Assembly (NCBI GenBank): GCA_016700375.1
Contig: CP065016.1
Coordinates: forward strand, 660,001-692,000
DNA length: 32,000 bases
DNA from: Candidatus Saccharimonadota bacterium
GTDB taxonomy: Bacteria > Patescibacteriota > Saccharimonadia > Saccharimonadales > UBA4665
Direction of reading: 5' to 3'
Shown here in pieces: positions 434-32,000 of the stretch; position 1 is the stretch's first letter; each line of letters opens with the position of its first letter. The notes under the pieces are model-generated. The model saw nothing but the letters and a program-made list of their open reading frames with translations. It ran no database searches and was not told where the DNA came from. A program made the position numbers and the translations under genes.

Positions 434-685
434 ATGAGATATCACTGCCTGTATAAACTATCTGGGAATACCCGCTGTAACCGCTCGATACCACGCGGTT
501 ATCTTCTCTGTAAAGAGCACAGAGGTGTGCATACCGTTTTGCCGGTGGTTGAGCCGACAATATCTCAAAACCGGCTTGCTCGAGGCGTAGAAGCAATCTG
601 TGTAGCTCGTACATCAATGGCTGAACCTCACCCAAAGGGCAAGATATTCGTAAGAGATAAAATCGGCCGGTCGGTGCTGCTATGA
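434..685 (+). CDS. small Cys-containing hypothetical protein (phage-like context)
   Basis: 83-aa ORF whose TGA overlaps the ATG of the next gene (ATGA at 682-685), which suggests translational coupling. No family recognised. A 106-aa antisense ORF competes with it. Confidence 0.3.
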   Translation: MRYHCLYKLSGNTRCNRSIPRGYLLCKEHRGVHTVLPVVEPTISQNRLARGVEAICVARTSMAEPHPKGKIFVRDKIGRSVLL

Positions 686-1116
686 CAGCCTCAGGTATCG
701 GTCGGCCGCCACAATTCTCAAATGCCGCACAGTTACAGTTATTGATAGACAATTACTTTTCTTCAGCCACAAAGTCATCACCCGCAAGACCTCTAACTAT
801 AACCGGCCTTATGCTTCACTGCGGGTTTGAGAGTCGGCAGTCATTTTATGACTATGAGAAAAAACCCGAGTTTTCTTACACTATAAAAAGAGCCCGGCTT
901 ATGATTGAAAACGTTTATGAGGAACTCTTGCAGAGCGGTCGAGGAGCGGGCGCAATTTTTGCTCTTAAAAACTTCGGCTGGACGGATAAAAGCGAAGTAA
1001 GTATTGAAAGGGACTCAATAGACTATTCGAGCATGACAGATGAAGAACTTGAATCACGTCTGATAGACAGCATTAAAAGAGATTACGGCGTGACGCTTCC
1101 ACGAAAGATGCTGTAG
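682..1116 (+). CDS. terminase small subunit-like / DNA-packaging HTH protein
   Basis: GRPPQF...LIDNYF...PLTITGL...FYDYEKKPEFSYTIKRARLMIE...GAIFALKNFGWTD matches the conserved pattern of phage small terminase (gp3-type packaging) proteins as I recall it. Confidence 0.7.
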   Translation: MTASGIGRPPQFSNAAQLQLLIDNYFSSATKSSPARPLTITGLMLHCGFESRQSFYDYEKKPEFSYTIKRARLMIENVYEELLQSGRGAGAIFALKNFGWTDKSEVSIERDSIDYSSMTDEELESRLIDSIKRDYGVTLPRKML

Positions 1117-1168
1117 TTTTGGCCTTAAGAAGATATCGCTTGAACTTTTTTCATATGAGATAATAAGA

Positions 1169-2824: not shown

Positions 2825-2879
2825 ACCTGCGACCTCACGGCCCCCAGCCGTACGCGCTACCAGGCTGCGCTACACCCCG
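2803..2879 (-). tRNA. tRNA-Pro (anticodon GGG)
   Basis: Minus-strand cloverleaf by eye: CGGGGTG TA GCGC AGCCTGGTA GCGC G TACGG CTGGGGG CCGTG AGGTC GCAGG TTCAAGT CCTGT CACCCCG A CCA. Confidence 0.9.
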
Positions 2880-9172: not shown

Positions 9173-10242
9173 CACGAGTTTCGCACTCCCCAATTCTTTG
9201 CTAGCCTAGAAGCATGACGTCAGTCATGCTTTTTCGTAAACAAGGAAAATAAACATGTCTCGTTCAAAATGTTCTCGTGAGCTGTACTGCTCATTCCTGG
9301 AGGTCACCTCCTCACGGTATTCTGCGCTCAGCTTGAGCGAAGTAGCCCCAGACAATGCCATGCTCTCTCACGACAGCGTCTCCCGTTGGCTAGCATCTGA
9401 AAAGATACAGCCCAAAGACCTGTGGCAAGCTGCCGCTAAGGAAGTTCGCGCCACTCCTGGCATTTTGGTCTTCGATGATGTCGTCATCGACAAAAGCCGA
9501 AGCGGCAAGATGGAGCTTGTGAACTGGCAGTATGCGGGAAGTAAGCATGACATCACCAGAGGGATTGGCGTTGTAAATGCGTTGTGGCAAGTAGATACAG
9601 AACACTACATTCCTATGGACTACCGCATCTGGAACCCGCCAGAAGACGGCAAGACTAAGAATGATCACTTCCAGGATATGCTGAGTAGCACAAGACAGAG
9701 AGGGCTACGCCCGGAGATGGTTGTTGCGGATAGCTGGTACGGCTCTCTAAAAAACCTTAAGGCAGTTCGCTCTCATGGCTGGGACTGGGTCATGGGGCTG
9801 AGGAGCAACCGGTTAGTCGGTAAGCCACATATCCAGCTCAGAGAGTTAGATATACCAGATACAGGCTTGGTGACATATCTGAAAGGCTATGGGTGGATCA
9901 GAGTCTTCCGGTTTGAGGCCAGTAACGGCCGCACGGATTATGTTGGTACAAGTCGTACTGACCTCACCCGCGAACAAGTCAAGAAATACTTCGAGCGCCG
10001 TTGGAGTGTCGAGGTACTGCATCGAGAGCTCAAACAAACCTGTGGCTTATCCCGCTGTCAGGCCAATCTTGGCCGAGCCCAAAGAAACCACATTGGGTTA
10101 GCTTTGCTTACCTGGGTACGAAAACATAAGAGAAGGCTAATTGACCAAACGACGCTATACCAACAAGATTGGGAGGTCATAAAACCAGGCATCCAGCTTG
10201 CGCTGGCTGCCCGGTTGAATGGGTGAAAGTGCGAAACTCGTG
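9173..10242 (+). mobile_element. IS element, 1070 bp, IS4-superfamily (IS701-like?) with 15-bp terminal inverted repeats and a 5-bp target duplication
   Basis: IRL cacgagtttcgcact (9173-9187) is the perfect reverse complement of IRR agtgcgaaactcgtg (10228-10242). Direct repeat CTTGC occurs at 9168-9172 and 10243-10247. Confidence 0.85.
9255..10226 (+). CDS. DDE transposase
   Basis: 323 aa. VFDDVVIDK and VVADSWYG acidic motifs. C-terminal YFERRWSVEVLHRELK fits the YREK signature of IS4-type transposases. Confidence 0.85.
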   Translation: MSRSKCSRELYCSFLEVTSSRYSALSLSEVAPDNAMLSHDSVSRWLASEKIQPKDLWQAAAKEVRATPGILVFDDVVIDKSRSGKMELVNWQYAGSKHDITRGIGVVNALWQVDTEHYIPMDYRIWNPPEDGKTKNDHFQDMLSSTRQRGLRPEMVVADSWYGSLKNLKAVRSHGWDWVMGLRSNRLVGKPHIQLRELDIPDTGLVTYLKGYGWIRVFRFEASNGRTDYVGTSRTDLTREQVKKYFERRWSVEVLHRELKQTCGLSRCQANLGRAQRNHIGLALLTWVRKHKRRLIDQTTLYQQDWEVIKPGIQLALAARLNG

Positions 10243-17696: not shown

Positions 17697-17718
17697 TGGT
17701 GCGGGTGGGGGGAGTCGA
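17697..17718 (-). other. orphan tRNA-Gly 3' fragment (positions 55-76 including CCA)
   Basis: Minus strand TCGACTCCCCCCACCCGCACCA is identical to the last 22 nt of the intact tRNA-Gly 133 nt upstream. Confidence 0.7.
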
Positions 17719-17814
17719 CCTTTCACCTTCGGTGAAACCCTGCTCCCATGGTCGCAGGGCAAGGGCGGCTTAGCGCCACTGGCGCTCGCGTTCGCCTCAC
17801 CCAGCCCAGAACCA

Positions 17815-17845
17815 TACAAAAAACCTTTCCTTTCGGAAAGGCCTT
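17815..17845 (-). terminator. intrinsic terminator after tRNA-Gly
   Basis: Minus strand reads CCTTTCC GAAA GGAAAGG TTTTTTGT. Confidence 0.75.
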
Positions 17846-17850
17846 TTGCC

Positions 17851-17925
17851 TGGTGCGGGTGGGGGGAGTCGAACCCCCGTCTCAGCCTTGGGAAGGCTAC
17901 ATAATAGCCGTTATACGACACCCGC
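17851..17925 (-). tRNA. tRNA-Gly (anticodon CCC)
   Basis: GCGGGTG TC GTAT AACGGCTA TTAT G TAGCC TTCCCAA GGCTG AGAC GGGGG TTCGACT CCCCC CACCCGC A CCA. Confidence 0.9.
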
Positions 17926-18138
17926 TTGCCTGTTATCATAACATAAATGGGGGTTCTACAGGAGTCGACTCACCTTCGGTGGTCACTTTCAGCGACCCCG
18001 ACGCTTCCCTATTGAAAGCGCAGCTTTCATCGAAAGGCGTCCTTGCAATGTGCCACTGGCATATTTCACCCGAAACTTCACGGCAGCAAGCCAGCTTGCT
18101 CCGGAAGATTTCCTTGCGACCCGCCACGGGCGGGTCTC

Positions 18139-18191
18139 ACCCCGTCTCAGCCTTCACGAAGGCTACATAATAGCCGTTATACGACACCCGC
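18139..18191 (-). pseudogene. truncated tRNA-Gly-like 5' fragment (positions 1 to ~53) with the anticodon replaced
   Basis: Identical to the intact tRNA-Gly except that CCC is replaced by CGTG, giving an 8-nt loop TTCGTGAA. It diverges inside the T-stem after GACGGGG. No 3' acceptor strand follows. Confidence 0.7.
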
Positions 18192-18314: not shown

Positions 18315-18358
18315 CGAAATTCCAATCCAAGGAGCGTAAGCGACTGAATGGAATTTCG
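18315..18358 (-). repeat. conserved hairpin (repeat family R2, copy 1)
   Basis: Minus strand reads CGAAATTCCA TTCAGTCGCTTACGCTCCTTGGAT TGGAATTTCG. See copy 2 at 20425-20467. Confidence 0.6.
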
Positions 18359-18441
18359 TGAGGAGGAACTGTGCGAAGCCCCACCTGACTTTTGGCCACT
18401 TGATTGCCGAAAGTCAGGTGAGGTTGTAACATATTCCGACG

Positions 18442-19131: not shown

Positions 19132-19554
19132 TCAGACCCAGGGAGAATACACCTGAAGCCCAGCAAACTGCTCAAAATCTTTGAGGTTGCGCGTAACCAA
19201 TGTCAGGTTATGGGCGAGACACTGTGCGGCCAACATGGCGTCGATAATGGGAGGGGTTCTGCCAGCCTTACTCCCTACAGCCGTCAAATCACCCCACAGT
19301 TTTGCCGCTATCACATCGAGTGAGATGATACGGCCCTCAAAAGCGTCTTGTATATCTTGTAGTTGAGTAGTCAGTTGCCGACGTTTCATGTCGTCTTCTA
19401 GAAGCATAATCCCTTTTTCTATCTCCCCGAGCACCAGGCATGATGTAAAGAGCTCTAGCTCACTCACTTGGGAAAACCAAGCGCTCACTTCGGAGTTCGG
19501 AGCCGGTTTGGCTAATTCGCTAAGGACGTTTGTATCAACCAAATATCCTATCAC
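19132..19554 (-). CDS. vapC: PIN-domain toxin (VapC/FitB type)
   Basis: MIGYLVDTNVLSE, and later LVTRNLKDF. 140 aa. Overlaps the antitoxin stop by 4 nt. Confidence 0.85.
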   Translation of the reverse strand: MIGYLVDTNVLSELAKPAPNSEVSAWFSQVSELELFTSCLVLGEIEKGIMLLEDDMKRRQLTTQLQDIQDAFEGRIISLDVIAAKLWGDLTAVGSKAGRTPPIIDAMLAAQCLAHNLTLVTRNLKDFEQFAGLQVYSPWV

Positions 19555-19805
19555 TGAACCACCCCTTCATCTGTCTGTCGACCTACCACTGCTCTGTCGC
19601 GGGCCAGGTCGAGCCCAGAAAAATCTGCCTTCTTTAGCGCCGTCTTTAGGCGGTGAGCCGGCTGAAGCATACGACGATAGTCGGCGTAACTCACTACTAC
19701 AGCTGTGTTTTTCCCGCGCCGACTTATAATTTGCGGCCCCTGACTGAGAGCTATATCTACGACGCTGCTCAGTTTGTTTTTCGCTTCTTGGAGTTGCCAT
19801 GTCAT
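19551..19805 (-). CDS. Phd/YefM-type antitoxin
   Basis: MTWQLQEAKNKLSSVVDIAL.GPQIISRRGKNTAVVVSYADY is the typical Phd/YefM N-terminus. Confidence 0.8.
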   Translation of the reverse strand: MTWQLQEAKNKLSSVVDIALSQGPQIISRRGKNTAVVVSYADYRRMLQPAHRLKTALKKADFSGLDLARDRAVVGRQTDEGVVQ

Positions 19806-19889: not shown

Positions 19890-19975
19890 GCGCCCGACCG
19901 GATGAACGCTTTGCTACTGCCCGCGTCGCATGCTCGGAGCGAGCTCCTGCGCGTGCTCCTTGTCATCGAACCGGC
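19890..19975 (-). pseudogene. tRNA-Asp 3' portion (T-arm plus acceptor 3' strand) interrupted in the T-loop by 62 nt
   Basis: Minus strand reads GCCGGTTCGA (19975-19966) + 62 nt (19965-19904) + ATCCGGTCGGGCGC (19903-19890). Deleting the 62 nt recreates GCCGGTTCGAATCCGGTCGGGCGC of the intact gene. No CCA. Confidence 0.6.
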
Positions 19976-20030
19976 AATCTACGTTCGCTGCGCTCACTAA
20001 TCGCCGGCTCAAACCGACGTGCAGACCACT

Positions 20031-20061
20031 AAAAAAGCCCCACCTTTGGTGAGACTTTTTT
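20031..20061 (-). terminator. intrinsic terminator after tRNA-Asp
   Basis: Minus strand reads GTCTCACC AAA GGTGGGGC TTTTTTAG. Confidence 0.7.
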
Positions 20062-20063
20062 AG

Positions 20064-20140
20064 TGGCGCGCCCGACCGGATTCGAACCGGCGATCTCCTC
20101 CGTGACAGGGAGGCGTGATAGGCCTCTTCACTACGGGCGC
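20064..20140 (-). tRNA. tRNA-Asp (anticodon GTC)
   Basis: GCGCCCG TA GTGA AGAGGCCTA TCAC G CCTCC CTGTCAC GGAGG AGATC GCCGG TTCGAAT CCGGT CGGGCGC G CCA. Confidence 0.9.
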
Positions 20141-20215
20141 ATACAGGTGTAATTGTACCAGATTATTTTGTTAATTAGGTCGGCCCGACTAGGACAAACG
20201 CCCTCCTTTGTCGGG

Positions 20216-20277
20216 CTCCTCCCTGCGGTACTCATCAAAAACATGCAAGCATCTTTTTGACTCCGTTCCTCGTCCGC
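20216..20277 (-). repeat. 62-nt conserved module E, copy 1 (fused to the T-loop of the truncated tRNA-Asp-like copy)
   Basis: 57/62 identical to 23488-23549. Contains an 11-bp hairpin. Confidence 0.8.
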
Positions 20278-20336
20278 CGAACCGGCGATCTCCTCCGGAT
20301 CAAACGAGGCGTGATAGGCCTCTTCACTACGGGCGC
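20278..20336 (-). pseudogene. truncated tRNA-Asp-like 5' fragment (positions 1-57) with an altered anticodon arm
   Basis: Identical to tRNA-Asp except that CCCTGTCA is replaced by CGTTTGATC (one nt longer). Identity ends after the TTCG of the T-loop, where module E begins. Confidence 0.7.
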
Positions 20337-20424
20337 TCGTCGCGGCATGGCAATGGTTTCCGCTACAGTGAAACAAGCAAAATGCTTCTTTCACTGAGCT
20401 ACAACCTCAGCCAGCCACTCCTCT

Positions 20425-20467
20425 CAAAACTCCATTCATCCGCTTCGCTCCTTGGATTGGAGTTTTG
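20425..20467 (+). repeat. conserved hairpin (repeat family R2, copy 2, inverted relative to copy 1)
   Basis: Plus strand reads CAAAACTCCA TTCATCCGCTTCGCTCCTTGGAT TGGAGTTTTG. The loop is nearly identical to copy 1. The stem differs at two positions, both compensated. Confidence 0.6.
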
Positions 20468-20592
20468 GAAATCACACTTTGCACAGAGCCGGTAAGGCAA
20501 ATATCAACCCTGGCAGTTCTTTTCCCCTGCTACGCAGTAGACAGAGCGAAACTAACAGAGGTCAGTGTACCAAGCTAGCAATAAAATTGCAA

Positions 20593-23255: not shown

Positions 23256-23330
23256 TGGTACCCCGGAAAGGAATCGAACCTATATCATCTCCTTAGGACG
23301 GAGCTACTCTATCCATTGAGCTACCGGGGC
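23256..23330 (-). tRNA. tRNA-Arg (anticodon CCT)
   Basis: GCCCCGG TA GCTC AATGGATA GAGT A GCTCC GTCCTAA GGAGA ... AGG TTCGATT CCT.. CCGGGGT A CCA. The T-stem is slightly irregular. Confidence 0.85.
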
Positions 23331-23386
23331 GTATATGTATTCTAGCGGGGTCCCCATGAAATCACCAGATTTCATGGGGTGCATTT

Positions 23387-23420
23387 GACGGAGTTATTCT
23401 ATCCGTTGAACTATCGGGAC
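23387..23420 (-). pseudogene. truncated tRNA-Arg-like 5' fragment (positions 1-34)
   Basis: The 34 nt GTCCCGATAGTTCAACGGATAGAATAACTCCGTC are identical to 23605-23572. Identity ends after the first anticodon base. A 12-bp hairpin follows (23352-23379). Confidence 0.65.
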
Positions 23421-23487
23421 ACACCATAATCTTATCATAGCACCGGTTCGCTTCCAGCTACGCCGGGATACGCGCGCTTACAGCGCA

Positions 23488-23549
23488 CTCCTCCCTGCGG
23501 TACTCGTCAAATACATGCAAGCATGTATTTGATTCCGTTCCTCGTCCGC
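23488..23549 (-). repeat. 62-nt conserved module E, copy 2
   Basis: See 20216-20277. It starts directly after the TTCG of the truncated tRNA. Confidence 0.8.
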
Positions 23550-23605
23550 CGAACCAACATCTGCTCCTTAGGACGGAGTTATTCTATCCGTTGAACTATC
23601 GGGAC
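23550..23605 (-). pseudogene. truncated tRNA-Arg(CCT)-like 5' fragment (positions 1-57)
   Basis: GTCCCGA TA GTTC AACGGATA GAAT A ACTCC GTCCTAA GGAGC AGATG TTGG TTCG, then module E. About 80% identical to the intact tRNA-Arg. No TCGGGAC 3' acceptor strand occurs anywhere nearby. TATAAT lies just upstream (about 23625). Confidence 0.7.
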
Positions 23606-24222: not shown

Positions 24223-25140
24223 ATGAAGCGTATGCAGTTTATCAAAGCTAAAACAGATTTTTTAGAATATCTTGAGATTGAACAAAACCGTTCGCAGAAA
24301 ACGATTCGCAATTACGACCACTACCTAACGCGCCTTGCCGACTACGCCGGTGACATCACCGTGCAGGATATAGACCAAGAACTGGTACGTAAATGGCGAT
24401 TGTGGCTGAACCGACTTGGTACCAATGTAAACGATGAGCTACAAAAAACAACGCTAAATTACCACCTCATTGCCCTGCGTAGCTTTCTAAAATTTTGTCA
24501 TAAACGCGAAATGAAGTGCATGGCACCAGATACCATAGAGCTATCCCGGACGAAACGACCCCAAGTGACATTCCTAAATGAAGAAGAACTCCAGCGTCTA
24601 TTTGACCAGCCCGATTCGAACACAGTGGCCGGACTACGCGATAGAGCAATCCTGGAGCTCCTCTTTAGCTCAGGCCTGCGCGTGTCTGAACTTGTAGGGC
24701 TCGACCGCGATCACATTAACCTCAAACGCCGCGAGTTCATGGTACGGGGAAAAGGCCAAAAAGACCGGCCCATTTTCATTAGCGCAGTGGCAGCCGACTG
24801 GCTTCAGCAGTATCTCGACAAGCGTACCGATACAACAAAACCGCTTTTTATGCGCTACGGTGGCCGGAAAACTGTTGACCGCAGCGGTAATTTCCATCGC
24901 CTCACCGCTCGAAGCGTCCAGCGCCTTGTCGCGCACTACGCCCTACTCGCCGGCATCACCAAACACGTCAGCCCACACACCATGCGCCACTCATTTGCAA
25001 CAAATTTGCTCATGAACGGTGCCGATCTGCGCTCAGTTCAAGCCATGCTCGGCCACAGCAACATCTCTACGACGCAAATCTACACCCACGTCACCGACCC
25101 ACACCTAAAAGCCGTCCACGAAAAATTCCACCATATGTAA
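24223..25140 (+). CDS. tyrosine site-specific recombinase, XerC/XerD-like
   Basis: SAM-like N-terminal domain, RVSEL, HTMRHSFAT, LGHSNISTTQIYTHV. Confidence 0.85.
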   Translation: MKRMQFIKAKTDFLEYLEIEQNRSQKTIRNYDHYLTRLADYAGDITVQDIDQELVRKWRLWLNRLGTNVNDELQKTTLNYHLIALRSFLKFCHKREMKCMAPDTIELSRTKRPQVTFLNEEELQRLFDQPDSNTVAGLRDRAILELLFSSGLRVSELVGLDRDHINLKRREFMVRGKGQKDRPIFISAVAADWLQQYLDKRTDTTKPLFMRYGGRKTVDRSGNFHRLTARSVQRLVAHYALLAGITKHVSPHTMRHSFATNLLMNGADLRSVQAMLGHSNISTTQIYTHVTDPHLKAVHEKFHHM

Positions 25141-25251: not shown

Positions 25252-26274
25252 CTATGGGCAGAAAGACGCGTACAGTCCCGGCGCAGCCGTAAATCTTTTG
25301 CACACGCTGGATTGGGATTGTATTGCGCCGGGGGGTAATGTCGGGTCTGGCGTGTTTAACCGAGCGCGAACTTTTATTCTACGCAAAACATCAATCGCCT
25401 TACCGGTGGAGTCTATGCTTGCTTGTGCATTTTTGAAATCAAGGGATGTGGCACCATTAAATGCATCAATCGTGACTGTCTCTGCGTCACGATAGTACAT
25501 GGTAAACCGCGCGTTATAATTTGCTACCTGGGAACCAGCACTCAGTGGAATTGATGCCGTACAAGATGCGGTTGCAGCAACACAGGGCGAAGGTATAATA
25601 TACGCGTTCGATGAACCGATGCTATACGAGGCCGGCCCGCCACCAGCTCTTGTAGGTTGCAAGAAAAATGTAGAAGTCAAGGCATTAAGAGATGCAGCGC
25701 CGCCCGAAAAGTTAAACGGTGCTTTGACGATATCCACCCGAAGTAACCCATAATTACAGCTGTAGCTTATGGACGATCTGAATTGACCGCTTCCAAGAGG
25801 ACAACCGGCAGTTGATGTCGGACCACCTTGGGGCTGGGACCACTTGAATGTTAATCTCGTTGTAGCTACTGGATTACCGCCAGCATCAACTGTATCAAAA
25901 GGGAAAACCGTCGAGGACATAGCATTCAGGCCAGTGATAATATCTGGCACAAATGGATCGACAAGAACACAGGTGTATTTGACGGATGGGTTTACGCTCA
26001 ATGATTGTGCGGGGAAAACAACACCGTCACAAATACTCTGTTCTGCAGTTGGACTCGTTCGAAGCACTTTGAGCGCCTCGTTTACGCCAGACTCTGCAGC
26101 ATAGAATGCTTGAGTACTCAACTGGCGATCAAGCGACTCCCTACGGTTACGATTCGAGACCTGCGTAAAGCCAATAACGATGAGCGTGATGACAAGCATC
26201 ATGATGATGGTAATCATGAACGAAACGAGTCCTTTATCGTCCTTTATCACTAAGCTACTCATGGTTACTTTCAT
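25252..26274 (-). CDS. PilX-like pilus assembly protein / large minor pilin
   Basis: N-terminal hydrophobic helix followed by QAFYAAESGVNEAL (PilX-N pattern). Last gene of the pilin cluster. Confidence 0.6.
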   Translation of the reverse strand: MKVTMSSLVIKDDKGLVSFMITIIMMLVITLIVIGFTQVSNRNRRESLDRQLSTQAFYAAESGVNEALKVLRTSPTAEQSICDGVVFPAQSLSVNPSVKYTCVLVDPFVPDIITGLNAMSSTVFPFDTVDAGGNPVATTRLTFKWSQPQGGPTSTAGCPLGSGQFRSSISYSCNYGLLRVDIVKAPFNFSGGAASLNALTSTFFLQPTRAGGGPASYSIGSSNAYIIPSPCVAATASCTASIPLSAGSQVANYNARFTMYYRDAETVTIDAFNGATSLDFKNAQASIDSTGKAIDVLRRIKVRARLNTPDPTLPPGAIQSQSSVCKRFTAAPGLYASFCP

Positions 26275-26295
26275 TGTACACGACCCCCGTGCTTT

Positions 26296-26982
26296 TTACA
26301 CCCTTTTTTGAACAGTTGTCGTCAATCGACTTGTTGCACAAAACTGCGATCCGGTTCTGCCCTTACAGGTAACATCTGGCGAAGCCCGTAGCTGTGCATC
26401 TGTCAGCGTAACAGCTGTTGAATCACAACTCGATGGGTGCGTGGACGGGGCGCACAGAAGATCATTGTCACCATATGCGATTGAGATGCTTATGCTATAC
26501 ATATTTGATACGGCAGGTATCTGTACAACCGAAAGTTGTGTTATGCGCATCCGTTCGCCTAGTAACTGCTGGCCAGAAAGCAAAGACTGATTGTGGCATA
26601 AGCTACCCGCCATCGCTATTCCATCCATTGGCACCATATATACCCCTCTTTGGCCTGCTAAGCCGGTATACATTGCCCCTGTGGTATCAAACATAAATAG
26701 ATTTCCACCAGCGCAAAAATAGTTATTTACCCCGCTTGGGAACACATTTGCGGTACCAAACTGTATAGCCTGGCTTATAGAATCAATGATTGATCGAGCT
26801 GTATTTTGTGTTGTTGATTGGTTTGAGGCTTTATAGTAACGATTGCTGAAAGACACAATACCCATAGAGATAACGAGCAAGATAACAGAAAACACCATCG
26901 TCGCAATCATCATTTCCGTTATCGTAAATCCCCGCAAGTCACTTTGGATAGTACGTAAACGTTTCATCACCCTGCCGTCCAA
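26296..26982 (-). CDS. minor pilin with prepilin-type N-terminal methylation motif (PilW-like)
   Basis: RGFTITEMMIATMVFSVILLV. The start may be the internal MKRLR. Confidence 0.65.
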   Translation of the reverse strand: MDGRVMKRLRTIQSDLRGFTITEMMIATMVFSVILLVISMGIVSFSNRYYKASNQSTTQNTARSIIDSISQAIQFGTANVFPSGVNNYFCAGGNLFMFDTTGAMYTGLAGQRGVYMVPMDGIAMAGSLCHNQSLLSGQQLLGERMRITQLSVVQIPAVSNMYSISISIAYGDNDLLCAPSTHPSSCDSTAVTLTDAQLRASPDVTCKGRTGSQFCATSRLTTTVQKRV

Positions 26983-27401
26983 TAGTATATTGTTACATTC
27001 GAGGTTCCACCTCCTAGCGTCACCCAGTCGATGTTTACCTTGTAGCGCGAACCAGAGTTCGTAATAGATACCCCGTATTTAGCCCCCCCGTTACTCCGTT
27101 CACAAGCCGCACTATGAGGCGCCGAAATAACGAACACATTAGTACTATTAAAACAGCCGCCACCAGACGAAATACTAGTTGAGCGCAATAGTTCGGCTTG
27201 TTGTTCGGCAAGTTTTTGGGCATACATTTGTTCTTGGGTCTCCTGTGATGCGCGAACATTACGATTCGTAACCGCATAGGCGCTCACAAGCACCATACTC
27301 ACAATACCAACCGCTATCAGCACCTCGACAATGGTATCGCCTGCCTGCTTCCTTCGCGCATGAGCTTTAAAAACACGCATTGTTTCAGCACCCAGTCCCA
27401 T
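26967..27401 (-). CDS. minor pilin (PilV-like)
   Basis: GDTIVEVLIAVGIVSMVLVSAY prepilin motif. The start may be MRVFK (27380). Confidence 0.65.
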   Translation of the reverse strand: MGLGAETMRVFKAHARRKQAGDTIVEVLIAVGIVSMVLVSAYAVTNRNVRASQETQEQMYAQKLAEQQAELLRSTSISSGGGCFNSTNVFVISAPHSAACERSNGGAKYGVSITNSGSRYKVNIDWVTLGGGTSNVTIYYWTAG

Positions 27402-28221
27402 TTTTTATGCTCAGCTTCACTTCTAACCCATTGGAAATGGTGATTAGGCCAGACTGATTCGTACCCCCGCTCTTAAAACAAAGTTCAATGCCATTCGCAA
27501 ACGCAGGGTACCTGTTGGCATACGGGTTGTTCATCTCTTTATTGATGTTGTTTACTTCATCGGATGGGTTCCATGCTCCGTATCCAGCAAGTCTTATTTT
27601 CTGGGATCCCCCGGATCCATTTCCAACCGACTGGAAATCAGCAAATGTAGACAACAGAGCAAATGATTGGACATTTGTATTCCAAGCACCAGCACCGACA
27701 GATCTTCCCTTTACGTACTCAATACTATTCGGTATATCAATTTTGTTTGTCAAATCTGGGATGGACGGGTTGGAGCTCGTTGGGGCGACGGCAGTAATTT
27801 TTGCATCAGCCGCATACTTAACCTCTTGACCGCTTATGAGCCTCCGTGCAGCGAGCGAGTAAACAAAAAAGCTATTCGGATGATCTGCCGGGTCAAAAAC
27901 TAGTGTTTTTCCTGCAAAAATACACTCGCCATTTGTCCCCTGTTCTTTGCCCACCGAAGCAGTAATTGTAACATTGTGTGGGCCGCTATCCGTACAGGTA
28001 AAGCCGCCCGCTGATGGGTAGTTTCCGGTTCGTGTTTCGTTTATACTCTGTTGGATTTGCTGCTGGAGACCGCGTATGCCAACGGCGAACTCAGTCTTCT
28101 GCTGCCGACCATTTATTAGTATAGCCGCACTGAGGAACAGTGCGCTTGTCACAGCCAGGACAATAAGCGTTTCAACAACAGTAAAACCCTGTGCCGGTGT
28201 GGTATCGCCACCCCTAATCAT
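27385..28221 (-). CDS. minor pilin with prepilin-type N-terminus
   Basis: MIRGGDTTPAQGFTVVETLIVLAVTSALFL. The ORF-track version (to 28452) extends into the IS and is rejected. Confidence 0.65.
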   Translation of the reverse strand: MIRGGDTTPAQGFTVVETLIVLAVTSALFLSAAILINGRQQKTEFAVGIRGLQQQIQQSINETRTGNYPSAGGFTCTDSGPHNVTITASVGKEQGTNGECIFAGKTLVFDPADHPNSFFVYSLAARRLISGQEVKYAADAKITAVAPTSSNPSIPDLTNKIDIPNSIEYVKGRSVGAGAWNTNVQSFALLSTFADFQSVGNGSGGSQKIRLAGYGAWNPSDEVNNINKEMNNPYANRYPAFANGIELCFKSGGTNQSGLITISNGLEVKLSIKNGTGC

Positions 28222-28264
28222 ACGCCCAGTATAGCATAAGCGATATGGTAATAGACAATTATTC

Positions 28265-29427
28265 TGACCCACACTCACTTTTTTCCTCCTCCCCGTACAT
28301 GAGCCACCGGTATCGGTGGTAGCAGCGGCGTACGTAGTAGCCGTTGCATATACTCCCAGGCTTGCTTGAACCAGCTCAGTCGTTTCTTGGGATGAATCTT
28401 CTGCTGTTGTTTTGGTAGTACTTTGACCGCATAGCGCCACAGTAACCACCAACCGAGGAAGACAAACAGCAGCAAGTTACGGATGACTTGTGGTTTTCTG
28501 ACTCGTTGCCACTCCAATCGTTGCAACCACTTCACATCCTTGAAGGCTTCTTCAATTTCGAACCTTTCTGCGTAACGGTTCAGGACTTGTCTTCTGGTGA
28601 GGGCCTCTGTTCCCTCGCTCGGTAGGTTGGTCAACAAAAACCAGGGCTCCGGATCCTTCATGTTCGGATTGTAATCCGAACGAATAAGTCGGAGCTTATG
28701 TGTATGGTACGTGATGGGTAATTCCTCATGACTAATGTCATGGATGGGTTCCTTCCACCAGCTGGGATCCCAGGGAAGCTGAACGAGCTTGTCGCTCTTG
28801 GTACGAGCGATGAAGTGCACATCGTACAGGGCAAACAAAGTGAACAGTTTGTCACTAGCAAACCAGCGATCCATGACAAGTACCAGTTGCAGATCTGGTG
28901 CATTAACTTGAAGGAAATGGAACAGTCCCTCCAGCGCCACTAGAAGTGGCGCAATGAGAGCTGCTTCGCTGAGGTTCACCTGACACCAAATGGGTATAGC
29001 TCGACCCTTGCGATGCGACACCGCCAAGATGGCGATACAAAACGGGCCGAATTGAGAGTGGTCCAGAGAGCAGTACCACCGACCAGTATGCGAAGCTAAC
29101 GCTTCGCTAACCAACAATCGCTGCAAGCGCACTGGCAGTTCCTCGTCAGTAACTAACCGACGAATGCGGTTTTCTCCAGTCCAGCGATTCAGCCCAAGCT
29201 TTCGACCAGCAGCGTTGAGCGAACAGAACTCCTGAAGGGAAAACTGTTCAACTCCGAGGAAGAAGCGACGAGCCTTAGCTTTTGGGATGTATGTCGCACG
29301 CAGCCGCTTTACAGCAGTTGCCATCTTTTGTAGTGTAGTCATTAGAAAACGACCTTTCTGTTTTAGCTTTTGTAACCAAAACTGTAGGGTCGTTTTTGTT
29401 ATGTGTCAAAAAAGTGAGTGTGGGTCA
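28265..29427 (-). mobile_element. IS4-family insertion sequence, 1163 bp, 20-bp perfect terminal inverted repeats, 11-bp target duplication
   Basis: tgacccacactcactttttt at 28265-28284 is the reverse complement of 29408-29427. Direct repeat GACAATTATTC occurs at 28254-28264 and 29428-29438. Confidence 0.9.
28275..29342 (-). CDS. DDE transposase (IS4 family)
   Basis: 355 aa. LVMDRWF acidic motif. C-terminal YAERFEIEEAFKDVK fits Y-2-R-3-E-6-K. Confidence 0.85.
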   Translation of the reverse strand: MTTLQKMATAVKRLRATYIPKAKARRFFLGVEQFSLQEFCSLNAAGRKLGLNRWTGENRIRRLVTDEELPVRLQRLLVSEALASHTGRWYCSLDHSQFGPFCIAILAVSHRKGRAIPIWCQVNLSEAALIAPLLVALEGLFHFLQVNAPDLQLVLVMDRWFASDKLFTLFALYDVHFIARTKSDKLVQLPWDPSWWKEPIHDISHEELPITYHTHKLRLIRSDYNPNMKDPEPWFLLTNLPSEGTEALTRRQVLNRYAERFEIEEAFKDVKWLQRLEWQRVRKPQVIRNLLLFVFLGWWLLWRYAVKVLPKQQQKIHPKKRLSWFKQAWEYMQRLLRTPLLPPIPVAHVRGGGKK

Positions 29428-29440
29428 GACAATTATTCTT

Positions 29441-30292
29441 TCACAATAGAGAGCTGGTATACCACTCGCCGATACGGTCTGAAAAAAGTACTACCAGAAT
29501 ACAGGCTGCTAAGAGGTATGGCCCAAAAGGTATGTGCTTTTGTAGACCTGCTTTTCCCTGTTTTAGCAAAGGTATGCTGCCTAGAGTGCCCAGCATCGAT
29601 GCGAAGAAAAGCACCAGCAGCGCCTTGATTGGATTGACTGCAATGATACCGAGCGGCAAAGCCAATTTGACATCTCCCCCGCCAATCCCTTGCCCGTCCG
29701 AAATTTGATAAATAAACCAAAACAATCCGAACAATAGTATCCCACCTAGAGCAGGATCAATAAGCAGGCGCCACTCTCGGTGAAGTATACTCATTGCAGC
29801 TGCCTGCAAGATAGCAACCCCGAGTAGAGTAAAGACTAGTTTATCGGGTAGAATGTACCATTTGTAATCATATACCCCTAGTGCAACAAACAGTACGCTA
29901 CAAATGAGCGTAAAGATAAATAAAACCAAACCAATCCCATGAAGTGCAAACGGCCAGCACAAAAACAAACCAACAAATAGCAAGCCGGTGAAACATTCCA
30001 CCAGAGGATACTGGCGAGAAATAGTTTTATGGCAATACCGACATCTCCCATGTAACATCAGCCAGCTAACGAGCGGGATAAGATCTTTAGCAGCCAATAC
30101 ATGGTAACAGCGCGTACACACGCTCCTCCCGGTCCAGATTGATAAGTTTGCGTTCCGATGCCTGGCTGCACGTTTCGAATTATTCTTTCTATGGGTTGGA
30201 TTAATTTGAGCATGCAGCCTCCAAACGAGGGCATTAACAAAACTTCCGCACAATAACCCGAAAAAAAATAAAACGATAACCATTTCAATCAT
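29441..30292 (-). CDS. pilD: prepilin peptidase (A24 family)
   Basis: GSFVNALVWRL, CTRC...CRYC zinc motif, GGGDVKL. Polytopic membrane protein. Confidence 0.9.
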   Translation of the reverse strand: MIEMVIVLFFFGLLCGSFVNALVWRLHAQINPTHRKNNSKRAARHRNANLSIWTGRSVCTRCYHVLAAKDLIPLVSWLMLHGRCRYCHKTISRQYPLVECFTGLLFVGLFLCWPFALHGIGLVLFIFTLICSVLFVALGVYDYKWYILPDKLVFTLLGVAILQAAAMSILHREWRLLIDPALGGILLFGLFWFIYQISDGQGIGGGDVKLALPLGIIAVNPIKALLVLFFASMLGTLGSIPLLKQGKAGLQKHIPFGPYLLAACILVVLFSDRIGEWYTSSLL

Positions 30293-30327
30293 AATAGCAA
30301 GTTTGCTGGCCTGTGGCTATTCACCGC

Positions 30328-30355
30328 ACAAGAGCGTCCCTCAGGACGCTCTTGT
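30328..30355 (-). terminator. 12-bp perfect stem-loop downstream of the major pilin gene (attenuator or stabiliser; no T-run)
   Basis: ACAAGAGCGTCC tgag GGACGCTCTTGT. Confidence 0.4.
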
Positions 30356-30386
30356 AACTACCGACGGATTGCAATTGTAACCGAGG

Positions 30387-30866
30387 CTAACTCTCTGTGC
30401 ACTGACGAGCGACACCGGTGCCACCAGTCTCGACGACATAGGTAGCCGCCACAGCACGAGGTTTGGCGGTAGGTGTATTTGCATTACAGCCGTAGTTTAT
30501 TCGAATATTTATGATACCCGTATCCGCAATGGCCGAGGGATCTGCCCCATTAAACCGAATTTGTGTTCCGGCTCTCACCTTAGATGTCACCGGACTGTCA
30601 GGAGTGTTACCAATGACGACATCTGTCGCGCCGCCGGGATCGGGGATATTTGACGGCATCTTACCATTGTTCGCGGCCTGAAACTCATTCACACCGCTCA
30701 AAACATTGGACGCATCATTCCGAATGGCAGTATTCCGACTATTCCGCTGCAATGCCGGTACCGCCAGGAAGACAATGAGCAGAATAAGACCGGCTATAGC
30801 TAGTACTATCAACACTTCAATAATTGTGAACCCCTGTTGCTTAGATCGCTGTGTAGTTTTTTGCAT
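30387..30866 (-). CDS. pilA: type IV major pilin
   Basis: QQGFTIIEVLIVLAIAGLILLIVFLAV. 159 aa, with its own strong promoter. Confidence 0.8.
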   Translation of the reverse strand: MQKTTQRSKQQGFTIIEVLIVLAIAGLILLIVFLAVPALQRNSRNTAIRNDASNVLSGVNEFQAANNGKMPSNIPDPGGATDVVIGNTPDSPVTSKVRAGTQIRFNGADPSAIADTGIINIRINYGCNANTPTAKPRAVAATYVVETGGTGVARQCTES

Positions 30867-30910
30867 ATAGCAAGTGCCCCTTTGCTTATTTAATTCTACT
30901 TATGCTTCAA

Positions 30911-30939
30911 ATAATACTGAATGGTTTAGCATATTGCAA
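30911..30939 (-). promoter_or_regulatory. sigma70-type promoter for pilA
   Basis: On the minus strand: TTGCAA (30939-30934), 17-nt spacer, TATTAT (30916-30911). Confidence 0.5.
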
Positions 30940-30998
30940 TAGGTGATATTCATGTATTGAGTCTCGCACGCTGCAGTAAGACCGTTCTGTGAAATATC

Positions 30999-32000
30999 TT
31001 ACACACCACCCAACCCATTCTTTCCCGCTAATCCATAGATGGGCAGAAGAACTGCGGCAACTATGATGAATGCGACAATTCCAAGTAACACCATCATGAC
31101 GGGCTCTATGATAGAGGATATGGTTTCCACTTCTGTATCGACTTCTTTTTCGTAATAATCAGCAACTTTTGCCATCATCTGCTCAAGTGCACCCGATTGC
31201 TCGCCAATACGCATCATACTCGGCACCAGCGGGAGAAAGTGCGGATCATTTTCTAAACTATCGGCGAGACTTTTGCCTCCTTTGACTTTTTCCGAAGCTC
31301 TCATGATTGATTTTTCAATATGCACATTGTTGACTGCCTTAGAGGTAATGCTGAGCATCTGCAATAACGGAACACCGGTAGATACTAGCGTTGTGCCCGT
31401 ACGCGCAAATCTGGCCATGTAGACCTTCATAAAAAGGCTTCCTATGGGCCATGCGCTCATTTTCAGTTTATCAATCACCTCTTTGCCTGGGCCAGTGCGC
31501 GCCCAGCGCGTTGTAAAGAAAATTGCGAAACCGAACGCCAAAAGCATAACCCACCAAAAGTGGATGGTAAAATCAGAAATACTTAGTAGGACTCTGGTAA
31601 TTAGCGGTAACTGAGCGTTTTGCATACCGTCGTATATATTTTTTACCTGAGGCAACACCTTCACCACCATAAATCCCACAACTGCCATCATGACTAATAC
31701 AACAACGAGAGGATATATCATTGCACCTTTGATTTTTGCATTCAGGTCAGCTTCTTTCTCTTGTTGTACGGCAAGACGGTCAAGAGCTTGATCGAGCGTT
31801 CCCGATGATTCCCCGGCCGCAATCAACGCAATATAAACAGGGTTGAAAACGCGCGGAAATTTCCCCATAGCGGCCGCAAGCGTGCCACCACCTTCAACAT
31901 CTCCAATGACTTGACTCAACACTACCTTGAGCGGTTTACTCGTCGCCTGGCTGTTTACGCTCCTTAGCGCCTGCAGCAGGGGCAGGCCTGCATTAATAAG
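30999..32000 (-). CDS. pilC: type IV pilus platform protein (GspF/PilC family), N-terminus beyond the window
   Basis: T2SS-F repeat pattern (GESSGTLDQAL..., GEQSGALEQMM...) and three TM segments. The reading frame stays open to nt 32000. Confidence 0.85.
   Translation of the reverse strand, partial: LINAGLPLLQALRSVNSQATSKPLKVVLSQVIGDVEGGGTLAAAMGKFPRVFNPVYIALIAAGESSGTLDQALDRLAVQQEKEADLNAKIKGAMIYPLVVVLVMMAVVGFMVVKVLPQVKNIYDGMQNAQLPLITRVLLSISDFTIHFWWVMLLAFGFAIFFTTRWARTGPGKEVIDKLKMSAWPIGSLFMKVYMARFARTGTTLVSTGVPLLQMLSITSKAVNNVHIEKSIMRASEKVKGGKSLADSLENDPHFLPLVPSMMRIGEQSGALEQMMAKVADYYEKEVDTEVETISSIIEPVMMVLLGIVAFIIVAAVLLPIYGLAGKNGLGGV

What the first reader, a model, noticed from the sequence alone, without database searches (positions are those of the whole stretch)
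19890..20336. tRNA-Asp locus repeats the same architecture: altered-anticodon 5' copy, intact gene, terminator, then a T-loop-interrupted 3' copy
On the minus strand, 20336-20278 copies tRNA-Asp positions 1-57 exactly, except that 8 nt around the anticodon (CCCTGTCA) are replaced by 9 nt (CGTTTGATC). Identity stops after the TTCG of the T-loop, where the 62-nt module E begins.

About 75 nt later the intact tRNA-Asp starts, with a TACAAT -10 box 12 nt upstream.

After its terminator comes a third piece at 19975-19890. It holds the variable region plus T-stem plus TTCGA, then a 62-nt insert, then ATCCGGTCGGGCGC. Precise removal of the insert restores a perfect T-arm and acceptor 3' strand.

In both the Gly and Asp truncated copies the changed anticodon region is one nucleotide longer than in the functional gene.
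Basis: seen in the sequence. Interest (0 to 1): 0.75.

Follow-up and report, generated by a model that had tools for sequence, protein, structure and literature searches.

The report
Interrupted tRNA copies flanking tRNA-Asp
In this Saccharibacteria genome the tRNA-Asp gene is flanked by broken copies of itself, and the 3' copy carries, in its T-loop, a degenerate member of a conserved folded ~60-nt element found next to at least 11 other tRNA genes in related bacteria and absent from Rfam.

Summary
The window comes from a Candidatus Saccharibacteria (Saccharimonadales) genome, and sister genomes share the architecture.

The 3' piece (19979-19890) belongs to a family. A second metagenome scan found the homologous ~50-66-nt insert between TTCG and ATCC of a partial T-arm. 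It lies 75-120 nt downstream of an intact tRNA with the same 3' end, at 11 anticodon types. The insert has a covariation-supported fold and no Rfam match. A covariance model scores the window copy at 32.7 bits (E about 1e-7), but its outer helix is broken.

The 5' copy plus module E occupies the ancestral tRNA position. A 95%-identical strain has an intact tRNA there. The copy's anticodon region differs between lineages, so I read it as decay, not design.

Both flanking units vary in presence among close strains. One strain holds a restriction-modification island between units.

Best reading (about 0.45): small non-autonomous cassettes recombine at tRNA T-loops as folded single strands, restore the gene and displace the old end.

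Rivals: a functional tRNA-trailer RNA, replication fold-back scars, classical integrase scars, and introns.

The parts
20564..20581 (-). Ancestral tRNA-Asp promoter-like site (TTGCTAGCTTGGTACACT), followed by the conserved leader start GACCTCTGTTAG
   Evidence: Conserved in all sister loci. In L005, L016 and L029 it directly drives an intact tRNA-Asp.
20418..20468 (-). 51-nt hairpin module in the leader, with GAGCGAAGCG in its loop
   Evidence: Its stem covaries in L001, L002, L008 and L015. An inverted copy lies at 18317-18365.
20278..20336 (-). X1: copy of tRNA-Asp positions 1-57 at the ancestral gene position. The anticodon loop is replaced at 20305-20298.
   Evidence: 31 + 20 exact nt. It is collinear with the functional tRNA of strain L029. 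Its anticodon region differs between lineages.
20216..20277 (-). Module E: 62 nt that begin right after T-loop TTCG. The hairpin is at 20260-20235.
   Evidence: Second copy at 23549-23488 (93% identical). Also present in L001, L002, L008, L015 and L017, with compensatory changes in the hairpin.
20170..20215 (-). G+C-rich hairpin, degenerate 3' T-arm/acceptor piece (TCCTAGTCGGGC), and fold-back (CGACCTAATTAAC)
   Evidence: L001, L007, L008 and L015 have ATCCGGTCGG(GC) here, followed by an inverted T-loop GGATTTGAACC.
20152..20160 (-). Extended -10-like box TGGTACAAT of the downstream intact gene
   Evidence: Read directly from the sequence. TGnTAyAAT is found at the same place in L008, L015 and L017. 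Promoter activity is not shown.
20064..20140 (-). Intact tRNA-Asp(GTC) with encoded CCA
20026..20063 (-). Intrinsic terminator hairpin (Tb type)
   Evidence: Inverted repeat I3. 97.5% identical to L001, but differs from the terminator of 98%-related strain L017.
19980..20019 (-). 5' arm and loop of hairpin H1. The arm is an inverted copy of the tRNA-Asp variable-loop/T-arm region (CGTCGGTTTGAGCCGGCGAT).
   Evidence: 12/12 pairs with X3. The inverted T-arm match has p about 0.003 against shuffles, and L015 matches 18 of 19.
19966..19979 (-). X3: variable-loop end, T-stem 5' strand and TTCGA
19904..19965 (-). 62-nt T-loop insert, a degenerate member of the conserved insert family
   Evidence: Model R1 gives 32.7 bits, E 1.5e-7 to 1.8e-8 over 19890-19978. 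The core GAGC..GCAGGAGCTCGCTCCGA..GCGA is retained and helix P1 is broken.
19890..19903 (-). Y3: rest of the T-loop, T-stem 3' strand and acceptor 3' strand (ATCCGGTCGGGCGC)
   Evidence: Exact repeat of 20081-20068. In L001, L008, L015 and L029 it continues through GCCA, and in L001, L015 and L029 a terminator follows.
23331..23605 (-). Arg locus with the same logic: ancestral tRNA-Arg positions 1-56 (23605-23550), E (23549-23488), promoter cassette (23487-23421), a second 5' fragment of positions 1-34 (23420-23387), and a hairpin plus promoter-like site (23386-23331), all upstream of a different intact tRNA-Arg(CCT) at 23330-23256
   Evidence: Strain L012 has the simple ancestral gene. L011 and L017 have only the 1-34 fragment.
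17697..18191 (-). Gly locus with the same logic: 5' copy (18191-18140), 171-nt insert, intact tRNA-Gly (17925-17851), terminator, inverted 3'-half piece (17808-17787), and 3' copy (17719-17697)
   Evidence: Also seen in L002 and L008.

Best explanation
The tRNA-Asp gene sits in an accretion site for small, non-autonomous DNA cassettes that recombine with the T-loop of tRNA genes.

Proposed unit: [tRNA 3' end from position 59 to CCA] - [terminator] - [optional cargo] - [hairpin H1, made of an inverted and a direct copy of the T-stem 5' strand plus TTCG] - [conserved folded insert of 50-66 nt].

Proposed mechanism: the site on the incoming piece is a T-arm whose loop is expanded by the insert. 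It pairs with the intact T-arm of the gene as a folded single strand of the tRNA-sense strand. An integron attC site works in a comparable way. Exchange at the right edge of the insert gives the gene a new 3' end and terminator. It also pushes the old 3' end downstream, behind the insert. That displaced end is the third piece. Repeated events give arrays.

The 5' copy plus module E would be the mirror product. Exchange at the left edge of an insert leaves the old promoter and positions 1-57 upstream. The incoming piece supplies a new promoter-like box and a new 5' part. The displaced copies are pseudogenes that decay. This accounts for the changed anticodon loop and the broken helix P1 of the window's insert.

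Shown: the family, its fold, its fixed position in the T-loop, its association with 11 tRNA anticodon types, presence/absence among strains, an array with cargo, and decay of the 5' copy.

Inferred: that the units move as cassettes, that the folded strand is DNA, and which enzyme acts.
For: 1. Family. 41 metagenome loci matched the insert core and about 27 are genuine. In each genuine locus the insert lies between (G)GTTCG and ATCC. The 19 nt after it match the 3' end, through CCA, of an intact tRNA 76-121 nt upstream, at 13-19 of 19 positions and mostly 17-19. The tRNAs are Asp, Arg-TCG, Arg-CCT, Arg-CCG, Met, Ser-CGA, Ser-GCT, Thr-TGT, Gln, Trp and Asn.

2. Fold. 95% of cells are paired. Nine pairs change on both sides. 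The covariation score is 0.389, against 0.131 in shuffles (0 of 500 reached it) and at most 0.107 for slid partners. Unpaired bases are invariant. G.T outnumbers A.C 9 to 2 in P1 and P2, so the tRNA-sense strand folds. Double-stranded protein-binding arm sites would not covary in this way.

3. The window copy is a member: 32.7 bits.

4. Movement of H1-X3-insert without Y3. L018 (Arg-TCG) and L022/L042 (Arg-CCT) share H1-X3-insert, and L018 and L042 come from the same metagenome. In L018, X3 (GCAGG) mismatches the local T-stem (GTAGG), while Y3 is local.

5. Fresh duplicates. In L015 and L020 the 3' end plus terminator is repeated exactly on both sides of the unit.

6. Polymorphism. L029 is 95% identical to the window over 2 kb. 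It lacks the 5' copy and E, and it has an extra unit between the tRNA and the window-type unit. The Arg locus has three states among strains whose PPIase is about 98% identical to the window's.

7. Cargo. In L029 a 3.8-kb restriction-modification island lies between units, flanked by 73-nt repeats made of CCA, terminator and H1.

8. Exchange between lineages. Window 19967-20325 is 97.5% identical to L001, while flanking genes are about 70% identical.

9. Decay of the 5' copy across lineages.
Against: - No recombinase or transposase lies in or beside any unit. The nearest tyrosine recombinase (24223-25140) is Xer-like and syntenic in every genome, so it is probably housekeeping.
- No circular or excised form was seen, and no copy occurs away from a tRNA.
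- There are no matches in phage, plasmid or viral collections.
- In 18 loci with a called tRNA upstream the gap from tRNA to insert core is a uniform 76-121 nt, with no cargo. A self-contained RNA gene would fit that equally well.
- T-loop position 58 is replaced rather than cleanly split, and no overlap sequence is duplicated at the junctions.
- The inverted T-arm copy (H1) is not predicted by a simple integration model.
- Carrying a tRNA-specific 3' end makes jumps to new tRNA species hard to explain unless the 3' end is copied from the target.
- Template switching can itself create compensatory changes in hairpins (PMC8794818).
Confidence: 0.45

Rival explanations
1. The unit downstream of the tRNA is a functional structured RNA, either a trailer of the tRNA transcript or a small RNA gene. 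It presents a T-arm with an expanded loop, the acceptor 3' strand and CCA. It would act as a mimic or decoy of the 3' end of its cognate tRNA. Alternatively, it would act as a switch in which the inverted T-arm segment pairs either with the tRNA or with the decoy copy. The tRNA-derived parts would be kept identical to the neighbouring gene by selection or gene conversion.
For: - Covarying stems with invariant unpaired bases, and sense-strand G.U bias.
- The well-preserved member L022 folds far better than shuffles (z = -3.5).
- The T-loop motif UUCG(U)A is retained and the insertion sits at position 58/59.
- About half of the units are followed by their own terminator after CCA.
- Distance from the tRNA is uniform.
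- Units are retained in streamlined genomes across a wide clade.
Against: - No promoter is evident between the tRNA terminator and the unit.
- Presence/absence among strains 95-98% related.
- Units occur in tandem arrays and with a restriction-modification island between them.
- The window copy has lost helix P1 and folds no better than shuffles (z = -0.4).
- L018 carries a T-stem strand that does not match its tRNA.
- Most tRNA genes in the window lack a unit.
Confidence: 0.25
2. There is no dedicated element. The pieces are scars of replication template switching (fold-back at the T-arm and terminator hairpins) and unequal recombination at a hairpin-rich, highly transcribed gene. They were later homogenised among loci by gene conversion and spread by natural transformation.
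For: - An inverted copy of the tRNA 3' half lies directly after the terminator.
- Fold-backs after the degenerate 3' piece of the upstream unit.
- Breakpoints lie in hairpin loops: T-loop 57-59, T-stem/loop 53-55 in Gly, and anticodon loop 34/35 in Arg.
- Mosaic identity blocks between lineages.
- Template switching is documented to create and maintain hairpins with apparent compensatory changes (PMC8794818; PMC7202029).
Against: This cannot explain a 45-nt core that is nearly invariant in sequence at 11 different tRNA anticodon types, always at the same T-loop nucleotide. Random scars would differ from locus to locus.
Confidence: 0.15
3. These are remnants of classical prophages or genomic islands that used a tyrosine or serine integrase with attB in the T-loop. 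The insert would be the arm of attP next to the core, and everything else has been deleted.
For: - The 18-19-nt repeat from the T-loop to CCA is the classic identity block of T-loop integrases, for example Ms6 (PMC1762012).
- Variable genes lie next to the tRNA-Asp array.
- A prophage-like element with a large serine recombinase abuts tRNA-Pro in the same window.
Against: - Random deletion would not leave units of uniform size at 18 loci.
- Stems of a double-stranded arm site would not covary.
- No integrase is present in any unit.
- The same insert accompanies many tRNA species.
- No hits in viral, phage or plasmid collections.
Confidence: 0.1
4. The interrupted copies are intron-containing or split tRNA genes whose T-loop intervening sequence is removed from the RNA.
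For: Exact removal of the insert restores a T-arm. Non-canonical T-loop introns and split tRNA genes are known in Archaea (general knowledge).
Against: - The 3' units lack positions 1 to about 43, and an intact gene sits next to each.
- The covariation-supported fold has no bulge-helix-bulge at the junctions.
- The 5' copies are truncated or mutated differently in each lineage.
Confidence: 0.03

Closest known systems
tRNA-targeting integrative elements with attB in the T-loop (e.g. mycobacteriophage Ms6, PMC1762012), and tandem accretion of integrase-less derivatives (cis-mobilizable elements; from general knowledge)
   Same: - Direct repeat of the tRNA segment from the T-loop to CCA.
- The intact gene is kept at one end and a displaced 3' fragment lies at the other.
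- Arrays of fragments, strain polymorphism, and defence cargo nearby.
   Different: - Units are only about 170-190 bp and carry no integrase.
- The sequence next to the repeat is a folded, covarying element.
- An inverted T-arm copy is part of the unit.
- The same element accompanies 11 tRNA anticodon types.
- A mirror-image version displaces the 5' part and supplies a promoter-like box.
tRNA-linked repeats of the E. coli tyrT operon (rtT; Rfam RF00391; recalled from memory, not tested beyond the Rfam scans)
   Same: The last ~19 nt of the tRNA, from the T-loop to CCA, recur downstream of the gene after its end.
   Different: No sequence or model match to rtT. Here a conserved structured insert and an inverted T-arm copy precede the repeat.
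Integron attC sites (general knowledge)
   Same: - Recombination-site-sized elements (about 60-140 nt).
- Stems covary while unpaired bases are conserved.
- One strand is the folded one.
- Promoter-less cargo is arranged in arrays.
   Different: - No R/L boxes (GTTRRRY).
- No integron integrase or attI is present.
- The anchor is a tRNA T-loop.
- Most units carry no cargo.
IS200/IS605-derived miniature elements (PATEs) and other hairpin-bearing MITEs (general knowledge)
   Same: Small size, hairpins, a fixed short sequence (TTCG) at the left junction, and no short target duplication.
   Different: - No copies outside tRNA contexts.
- T-loop position 58 is replaced.
- Each copy is accompanied by direct and inverted duplications of the target.
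- No TnpA was seen in the window.
Non-canonical tRNA introns and split or permuted tRNA genes of Archaea and red algae (general knowledge)
   Same: The tRNA sequence is interrupted in the T-loop, and removing the interruption restores the arm.
   Different: - No bulge-helix-bulge motif.
- The partial copies lack the 5' half.
- A functional gene lies adjacent.
- The insert sequence is conserved across tRNA species.

Membership tests
tRNA-integrating element with site-specific integrase (att scars) | Direct repeat of the tRNA segment from the crossover to the 3' end, flanking inserted DNA | tested here: met
   Y3 (19903-19890) equals 20081-20068. In the family, 13-19 of 19 nt match, mostly 17-19.
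tRNA-integrating element with site-specific integrase (att scars) | Integrase gene inside the inserted DNA | tested here: not met
   No recombinase lies between or beside the units. The Xer-like gene 4 kb away is syntenic in all genomes.
tRNA-integrating element with site-specific integrase (att scars) | Presence/absence between related strains, with precise junctions | tested here: met
   Window compared with L029 and L017. Arg locus in L012, L011 and the window.
tRNA-integrating element with site-specific integrase (att scars) | Overlap (core) sequence present at both junctions | tested here: not met
   The left junction is TTCG|insert and the right junction is insert|ATCC. T-loop position 58 is replaced, and the 7-nt loop is not duplicated.
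Integron cassette / attC | R''-L''...L'-R' boxes with a GTTRRRY core | tested here: not met
   The consensus of 21 inserts shows no such boxes.
Integron cassette / attC | Folded single strand with covarying stems and conserved unpaired bases | tested here: met
Integron cassette / attC | Integron integrase with its specific extra domain next to attI | not tested
   The Xer-like protein scores far below the integron-integrase cut-offs (127 against 265 bits). No structural test was done.
IS200/IS605-type miniature element | Fixed tetra- or pentanucleotide 5' of the left end, and subterminal hairpins | tested here: met
   TTCG precedes the insert in 16 of 21 aligned copies (variants GGTC, GGTCG, GTTAG, GGGCG). 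Helices P1 and P2 are present.
IS200/IS605-type miniature element | Dispersed copies in unrelated contexts, and a TnpA gene in the genome | tested here: inconclusive
   All genuine copies are next to tRNAs. No HUH transposase was found among the window ORFs scanned. The whole genome was not available.
Archaeal-type tRNA intron / split tRNA | Bulge-helix-bulge at the exon-intron junctions of an otherwise complete or complementary tRNA | tested here: not met
   The supported fold has no such motif. The 3' units lack positions 1 to about 43.
Any Rfam 15 family (including rtT, self-cleaving ribozymes, tmRNA) | Covariance-model match | tested here: not met
   Only tRNA reached threshold. Nothing plausible appeared up to E=10 over the units.
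T-loop insert family defined here (model R1) | Insert core with P1/P2 between the T-stem strands of a partial tRNA copy downstream of the matching tRNA | tested here: met
   Window 19890-19978 scores 32.7 bits, E about 1e-7. The core and position are retained, and P1 is degenerate.

The most novel reading that the evidence does not exclude
The ~50-66-nt folded insert at T-loop position 58/59, together with its inverted T-arm hairpin, marks a kind of genetic element not yet described in Saccharimonadia. One possibility is a tRNA-anchored cassette system whose recombination sites are T-arm mimics recognised as folded single strands. That would be analogous to an integron, using tRNA genes as attI. 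The other possibility is a new class of tRNA-3'-end-mimicking structured RNA paired with individual tRNA genes.
Probability: 0.4. Interest if true: 0.85.

Novelty: new variant of a known kind. Interest (0 to 1): 0.7.

Why it matters
Partial tRNA repeats are usually dismissed as integration scars. Here the scar carries a conserved, covarying element that always sits at the same T-loop nucleotide. It lies next to many different tRNA genes in the Saccharimonadia, a class of ultrasmall symbionts with about 1-Mb genomes.

If the units are mobile, they would show how streamlined genomes acquire and shuffle defence cargo (restriction-modification, toxin-antitoxin) without resident integrases. They would also show a way to target an essential single-copy gene safely, by rebuilding it.

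If the units are RNAs, they would be a new class of tRNA mimic tied to single isoacceptors.

On the practical side, the repeats break short-read assemblies at tRNA loci and can mislead tRNA annotation in CPR genomes.

Tried and rejected
- Known RNA families. Rfam at gathering and at permissive E-values over the window units, L002 and L022 gave nothing beyond tRNA.
- Module E as a widespread repeat. Only 2 genome hits and 0 viral hits. The first metagenome scan gave 0 hits. That negative is uninformative, because JGI contig L017 contains E.
- Homology of E to the T-loop insert. They share a GCGGACG-like start and a GC-UU-GC hairpin apex in some variants, but neither nhmmer nor model R1 links them. 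The question is left open.
- A special function for the altered anticodon (frameshift-suppressor-like 8/9-nt loops, decoys for anticodon nucleases). Rejected because the region differs between lineages and is intact in L008.
- Split or trans-spliced tRNA. No complementary sequences follow the 5' copy or precede the 3' copy (sequence inspection).
- Hammerhead or kink-turn reading of UGAUGAG in E. No model support.
- Reverse-transcription origin (3' block of 18-19 nt bounded by position 58). The Gly units break at 53-55 instead, so this was not pursued.
- vapBC as cargo of the unit. Rejected because its insertion point lies in the flank downstream of Y3, relative to L029.
- Variable genes after the array in L001, L003, L009 and L010. 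No mobility domains were found.
- Phage, plasmid and IMG/VR searches for the insert gave no match.
- The consensus promoter/terminator scan was uninformative.
Full report
**Check of the observation.** On the minus strand, tRNA-Asp(GTC) is at 20140-20064. The stretch 20336-20278 repeats its positions 1-57. It has 31 and 20 exact nucleotides on either side of a replaced anticodon loop, where CCTGTCA becomes GTTTGATC. Identity ends after GGTTCG and the 62-nt module E follows (20277-20216). A 93%-identical second copy of E lies at 23549-23488, again directly after GGTTCG, this time of a tRNA-Arg 5' fragment. After the terminator (20063-20026) comes GATTGCCGGTTCGA (19979-19966), a 62-nt insert (19965-19904) and ATCCGGTCGGGCGC (19903-19890). 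The Gly locus has the same layout. The description is therefore accurate.

**Source and sister loci.** The neighbouring peptidyl-prolyl isomerase is 100% identical to a protein on a 1.26-Mb Candidatus Saccharibacteria contig. A genome scan with module E found two Saccharimonadales genomes. Homologues of the isomerase gave further sister loci.
- The simple state occurs in L005, L016 and L029: conserved promoter-like site, short leader, tRNA-Asp, with a terminator visible in L005 and L029.
- The expanded state occurs, with variations, in L001, L002, L003, L007, L008, L015 and L017.

**The 5' copy.** Strain L029 is 95.1% identical to the window over 2 kb. That alignment runs into the window's 5' copy and stops at its T-loop. 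L029 has an intact tRNA at that position. The 5' copy is therefore the old gene position, and the functional gene now lies 196 nt downstream behind a new TGnTAyAAT box.
- The anticodon region of the copy is not conserved. It is normal in L008, CGTTTGATCC in the window, L001 and L017, CTTTTGATCT in L002, and a replacement of equal length in L015. The whole copy is cut to 10 nt in L007 and 6 nt in L003.
- I read this as pseudogene decay.
- After E come a G+C-rich hairpin, a piece of the tRNA 3' part (ATCCGGTCGGGC in L001, L008 and L015; ATCCGGTCGG in L007), and its inverted complement reaching into the T-loop (GGATTTGAACC).
- The upstream unit is thus a nearly whole tRNA copy with an ~80-nt T-loop insertion and a fold-back.
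- The E hairpin keeps its pairing through changes on both sides.
- E is rare: Asp loci of a few genomes, plus the Arg loci of the window and, in part, L001.

**The 3' piece.** Its start is an inverted copy of the tRNA-Asp variable-loop/T-arm region. L015 matches 18 of 19, and the window has p about 0.003 against shuffles. The inverted copy is absent from the simple locus L005. With the direct copy it forms a 12-bp hairpin, H1. In L001, L008, L015 and L029 the final piece runs through GCCA; a terminator follows in L001, L015 and L029. In L015 the 3' end plus terminator is duplicated exactly.

**The family.** The insert of L001, L002, L003 and L015 shares a core. A metagenome scan with GAGCGTGCAGNNGCTTGCNNCGA returned 41 loci, of which about 27 are genuine.
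- In every genuine locus the insert lies between (G)GTTCG and ATCC.
- The 6-14 nt before it and the 19 nt after it, through CCA, match an intact tRNA 76-121 nt upstream on the same strand.
- The tRNAs are Asp, Arg-TCG, Arg-CCT, Arg-CCG, Met, Ser-CGA, Ser-GCT, Thr-TGT, Gln, Trp and Asn.
- One tested contig is Saccharimonadales-like by protein names. Several others share the window's tRNA order.

**Fold of the insert.** An alignment of 21 copies has invariant unpaired bases and covarying stems.
- 95% of cells are paired and nine pairs change on both sides.
- The covariation score is 0.389, against 0.131 in shuffles (0 of 500 reached it) and at most 0.107 with slid partners.
- G.T exceeds A.C nine to two in P1 and P2, so the tRNA-sense strand is the folded one.
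- Rfam has no matching family.

**Where the window copy stands.** A covariance model of the family scores the window's third piece at 32.7 bits (E 1.5e-7 to 1.8e-8). It scores the divergent versions of L008 at 22.7 bits and L010 at 15.8 bits. In the window the core is kept, helix P1 is broken, and the fold is no better than shuffles (z = -0.4). For L022 z is -3.5. The window therefore holds a decaying member.

**Dynamics.**
- L029 has an extra unit between the tRNA and the window-type unit, a third unit 4 kb downstream, and a restriction-modification island between units. The island is bounded by 73-nt repeats of CCA, terminator and H1.
- The window segment 19967-20325 is 97.5% identical to L001, while neighbouring genes are about 70% identical. 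The 98%-related strain L017 has another terminator there.
- The Arg locus has three states among close strains.
- L018 and L042 come from one metagenome. They share H1, the T-stem strand and the insert at two different tRNA-Arg genes. The T-stem strand mismatches the local tRNA in L018, while the 3' block is local.

**Interpretation.** The fixed position in the T-loop, the repeated 3' block, the arrays, the polymorphism and the cargo are what integration at a tRNA gene produces. The T-loop is a known attachment site (PMC1762012).
- Features that do not fit a classical double-stranded att arm or random deletion remnants: the uniform ~180-bp size, the lack of any recombinase gene, the covarying fold, the sense-strand bias and the inverted T-arm copy.
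- I therefore favour small non-autonomous cassettes whose site is a T-arm mimic recognised as a folded single strand. The 5' copy plus E would be the mirror-image product. Confidence is about 0.45.
- A functional trailer RNA that mimics the 3' end of its tRNA remains a serious rival (0.25).
- Fold-back template switching explains the inverted copies and can itself generate compensatory changes (PMC8794818). It does not explain a near-invariant core at 11 tRNA anticodon types (0.15).
- Classical integrase scars (0.1) and introns or split genes (0.03) fit worse.
- The enzyme, the moving form, and whether the folded strand is DNA or RNA are all inferred, not shown.

**Limits.**
- The collection scans were capped, so the Gly-type insert and module E could not be traced in metagenomes.
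- The whole source genome was not available for counting copies.
- No expression data exist here.
- The model's E-values are rough.

Noticed in passing
window 682-2879: A phage DNA-packaging gp3-like gene (682-1116) and a 551-aa large serine recombinase (1169-2824). The recombinase's 3' end overlaps the 3' end of tRNA-Pro(GGG) (2803-2879, minus strand). This looks like a prophage-like element integrated at a tRNA gene, cut by the window edge.
   Followed up: partly
window 20418-20468 (-) and 18317-18365 (+): A 51-nt hairpin module in the tRNA-Asp leader recurs in inverted orientation in the Thr-Gly spacer. It also recurs, with a covarying stem, in the leaders of L001, L002, L008 and L015. Its loop holds GAGCGAAGCG. 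The same RAGCG pentamers recur in the T-loop insert and in the H1 loop.
   Followed up: partly
L002 4194-4290: In the complete genome CP064992, the 'tRNA-Asp' at this locus has a 5-nt CTGTC duplication in the anticodon loop and an aberrant 3' end. ARAGORN and Rfam do not call it. Either the functional gene is elsewhere in that genome or the assembly is wrong here.
   Followed up: no
window 19132-19805: A vapBC pair (Phd/YefM antitoxin plus PIN toxin) with its own TTGACA-17-TACAAT promoter-like site. It is an insertion relative to L002, L008 and L029. Its insertion point lies in the flank downstream of the 3' tRNA piece, not at a unit boundary.
   Followed up: partly
L029 2250-6110: A 3.8-kb island encodes an N6-methylase/HSDR_N fusion and a specificity subunit (restriction-modification). 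It lies between two T-loop-insert units and is flanked by 73-nt direct repeats.
   Followed up: partly
window 23256-23605; L011, L012, L017: The intact tRNA-Arg(CCT) of the window, L011 and L017 has a different sequence (83% identity over a 54-nt comparison) from the ancestral tRNA-Arg found in L012, L001, L002 and L007. The gene has been replaced, not only duplicated.
   Followed up: partly
window 9255-10226 (+) and 28275-29342 (-): Two DDE transposase ORFs. The second lies inside the type IV pilus/pseudopilin gene cluster (25252-31922).
   Followed up: no
L004, L011, L012, L013 (contig ends): Short-read contigs of close relatives end within or just before the 5' tRNA-Asp copy. These repeats break assemblies. 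Separately, the metagenome-contig scan for module E returned nothing although JGI contig L017 contains it, so that negative result is unreliable.
   Followed up: yes
L002 820-1068; window 17969-18139: The insert behind the tRNA-Arg 1-34 fragment in L002 and the Gly-locus insert share a module: GGTGAGAC-hairpin-CAAGG(A/G)AATCTTCCG-hairpin, with different hairpin sequences. This may be another small structured repeat family at tRNA loci.
   Followed up: no
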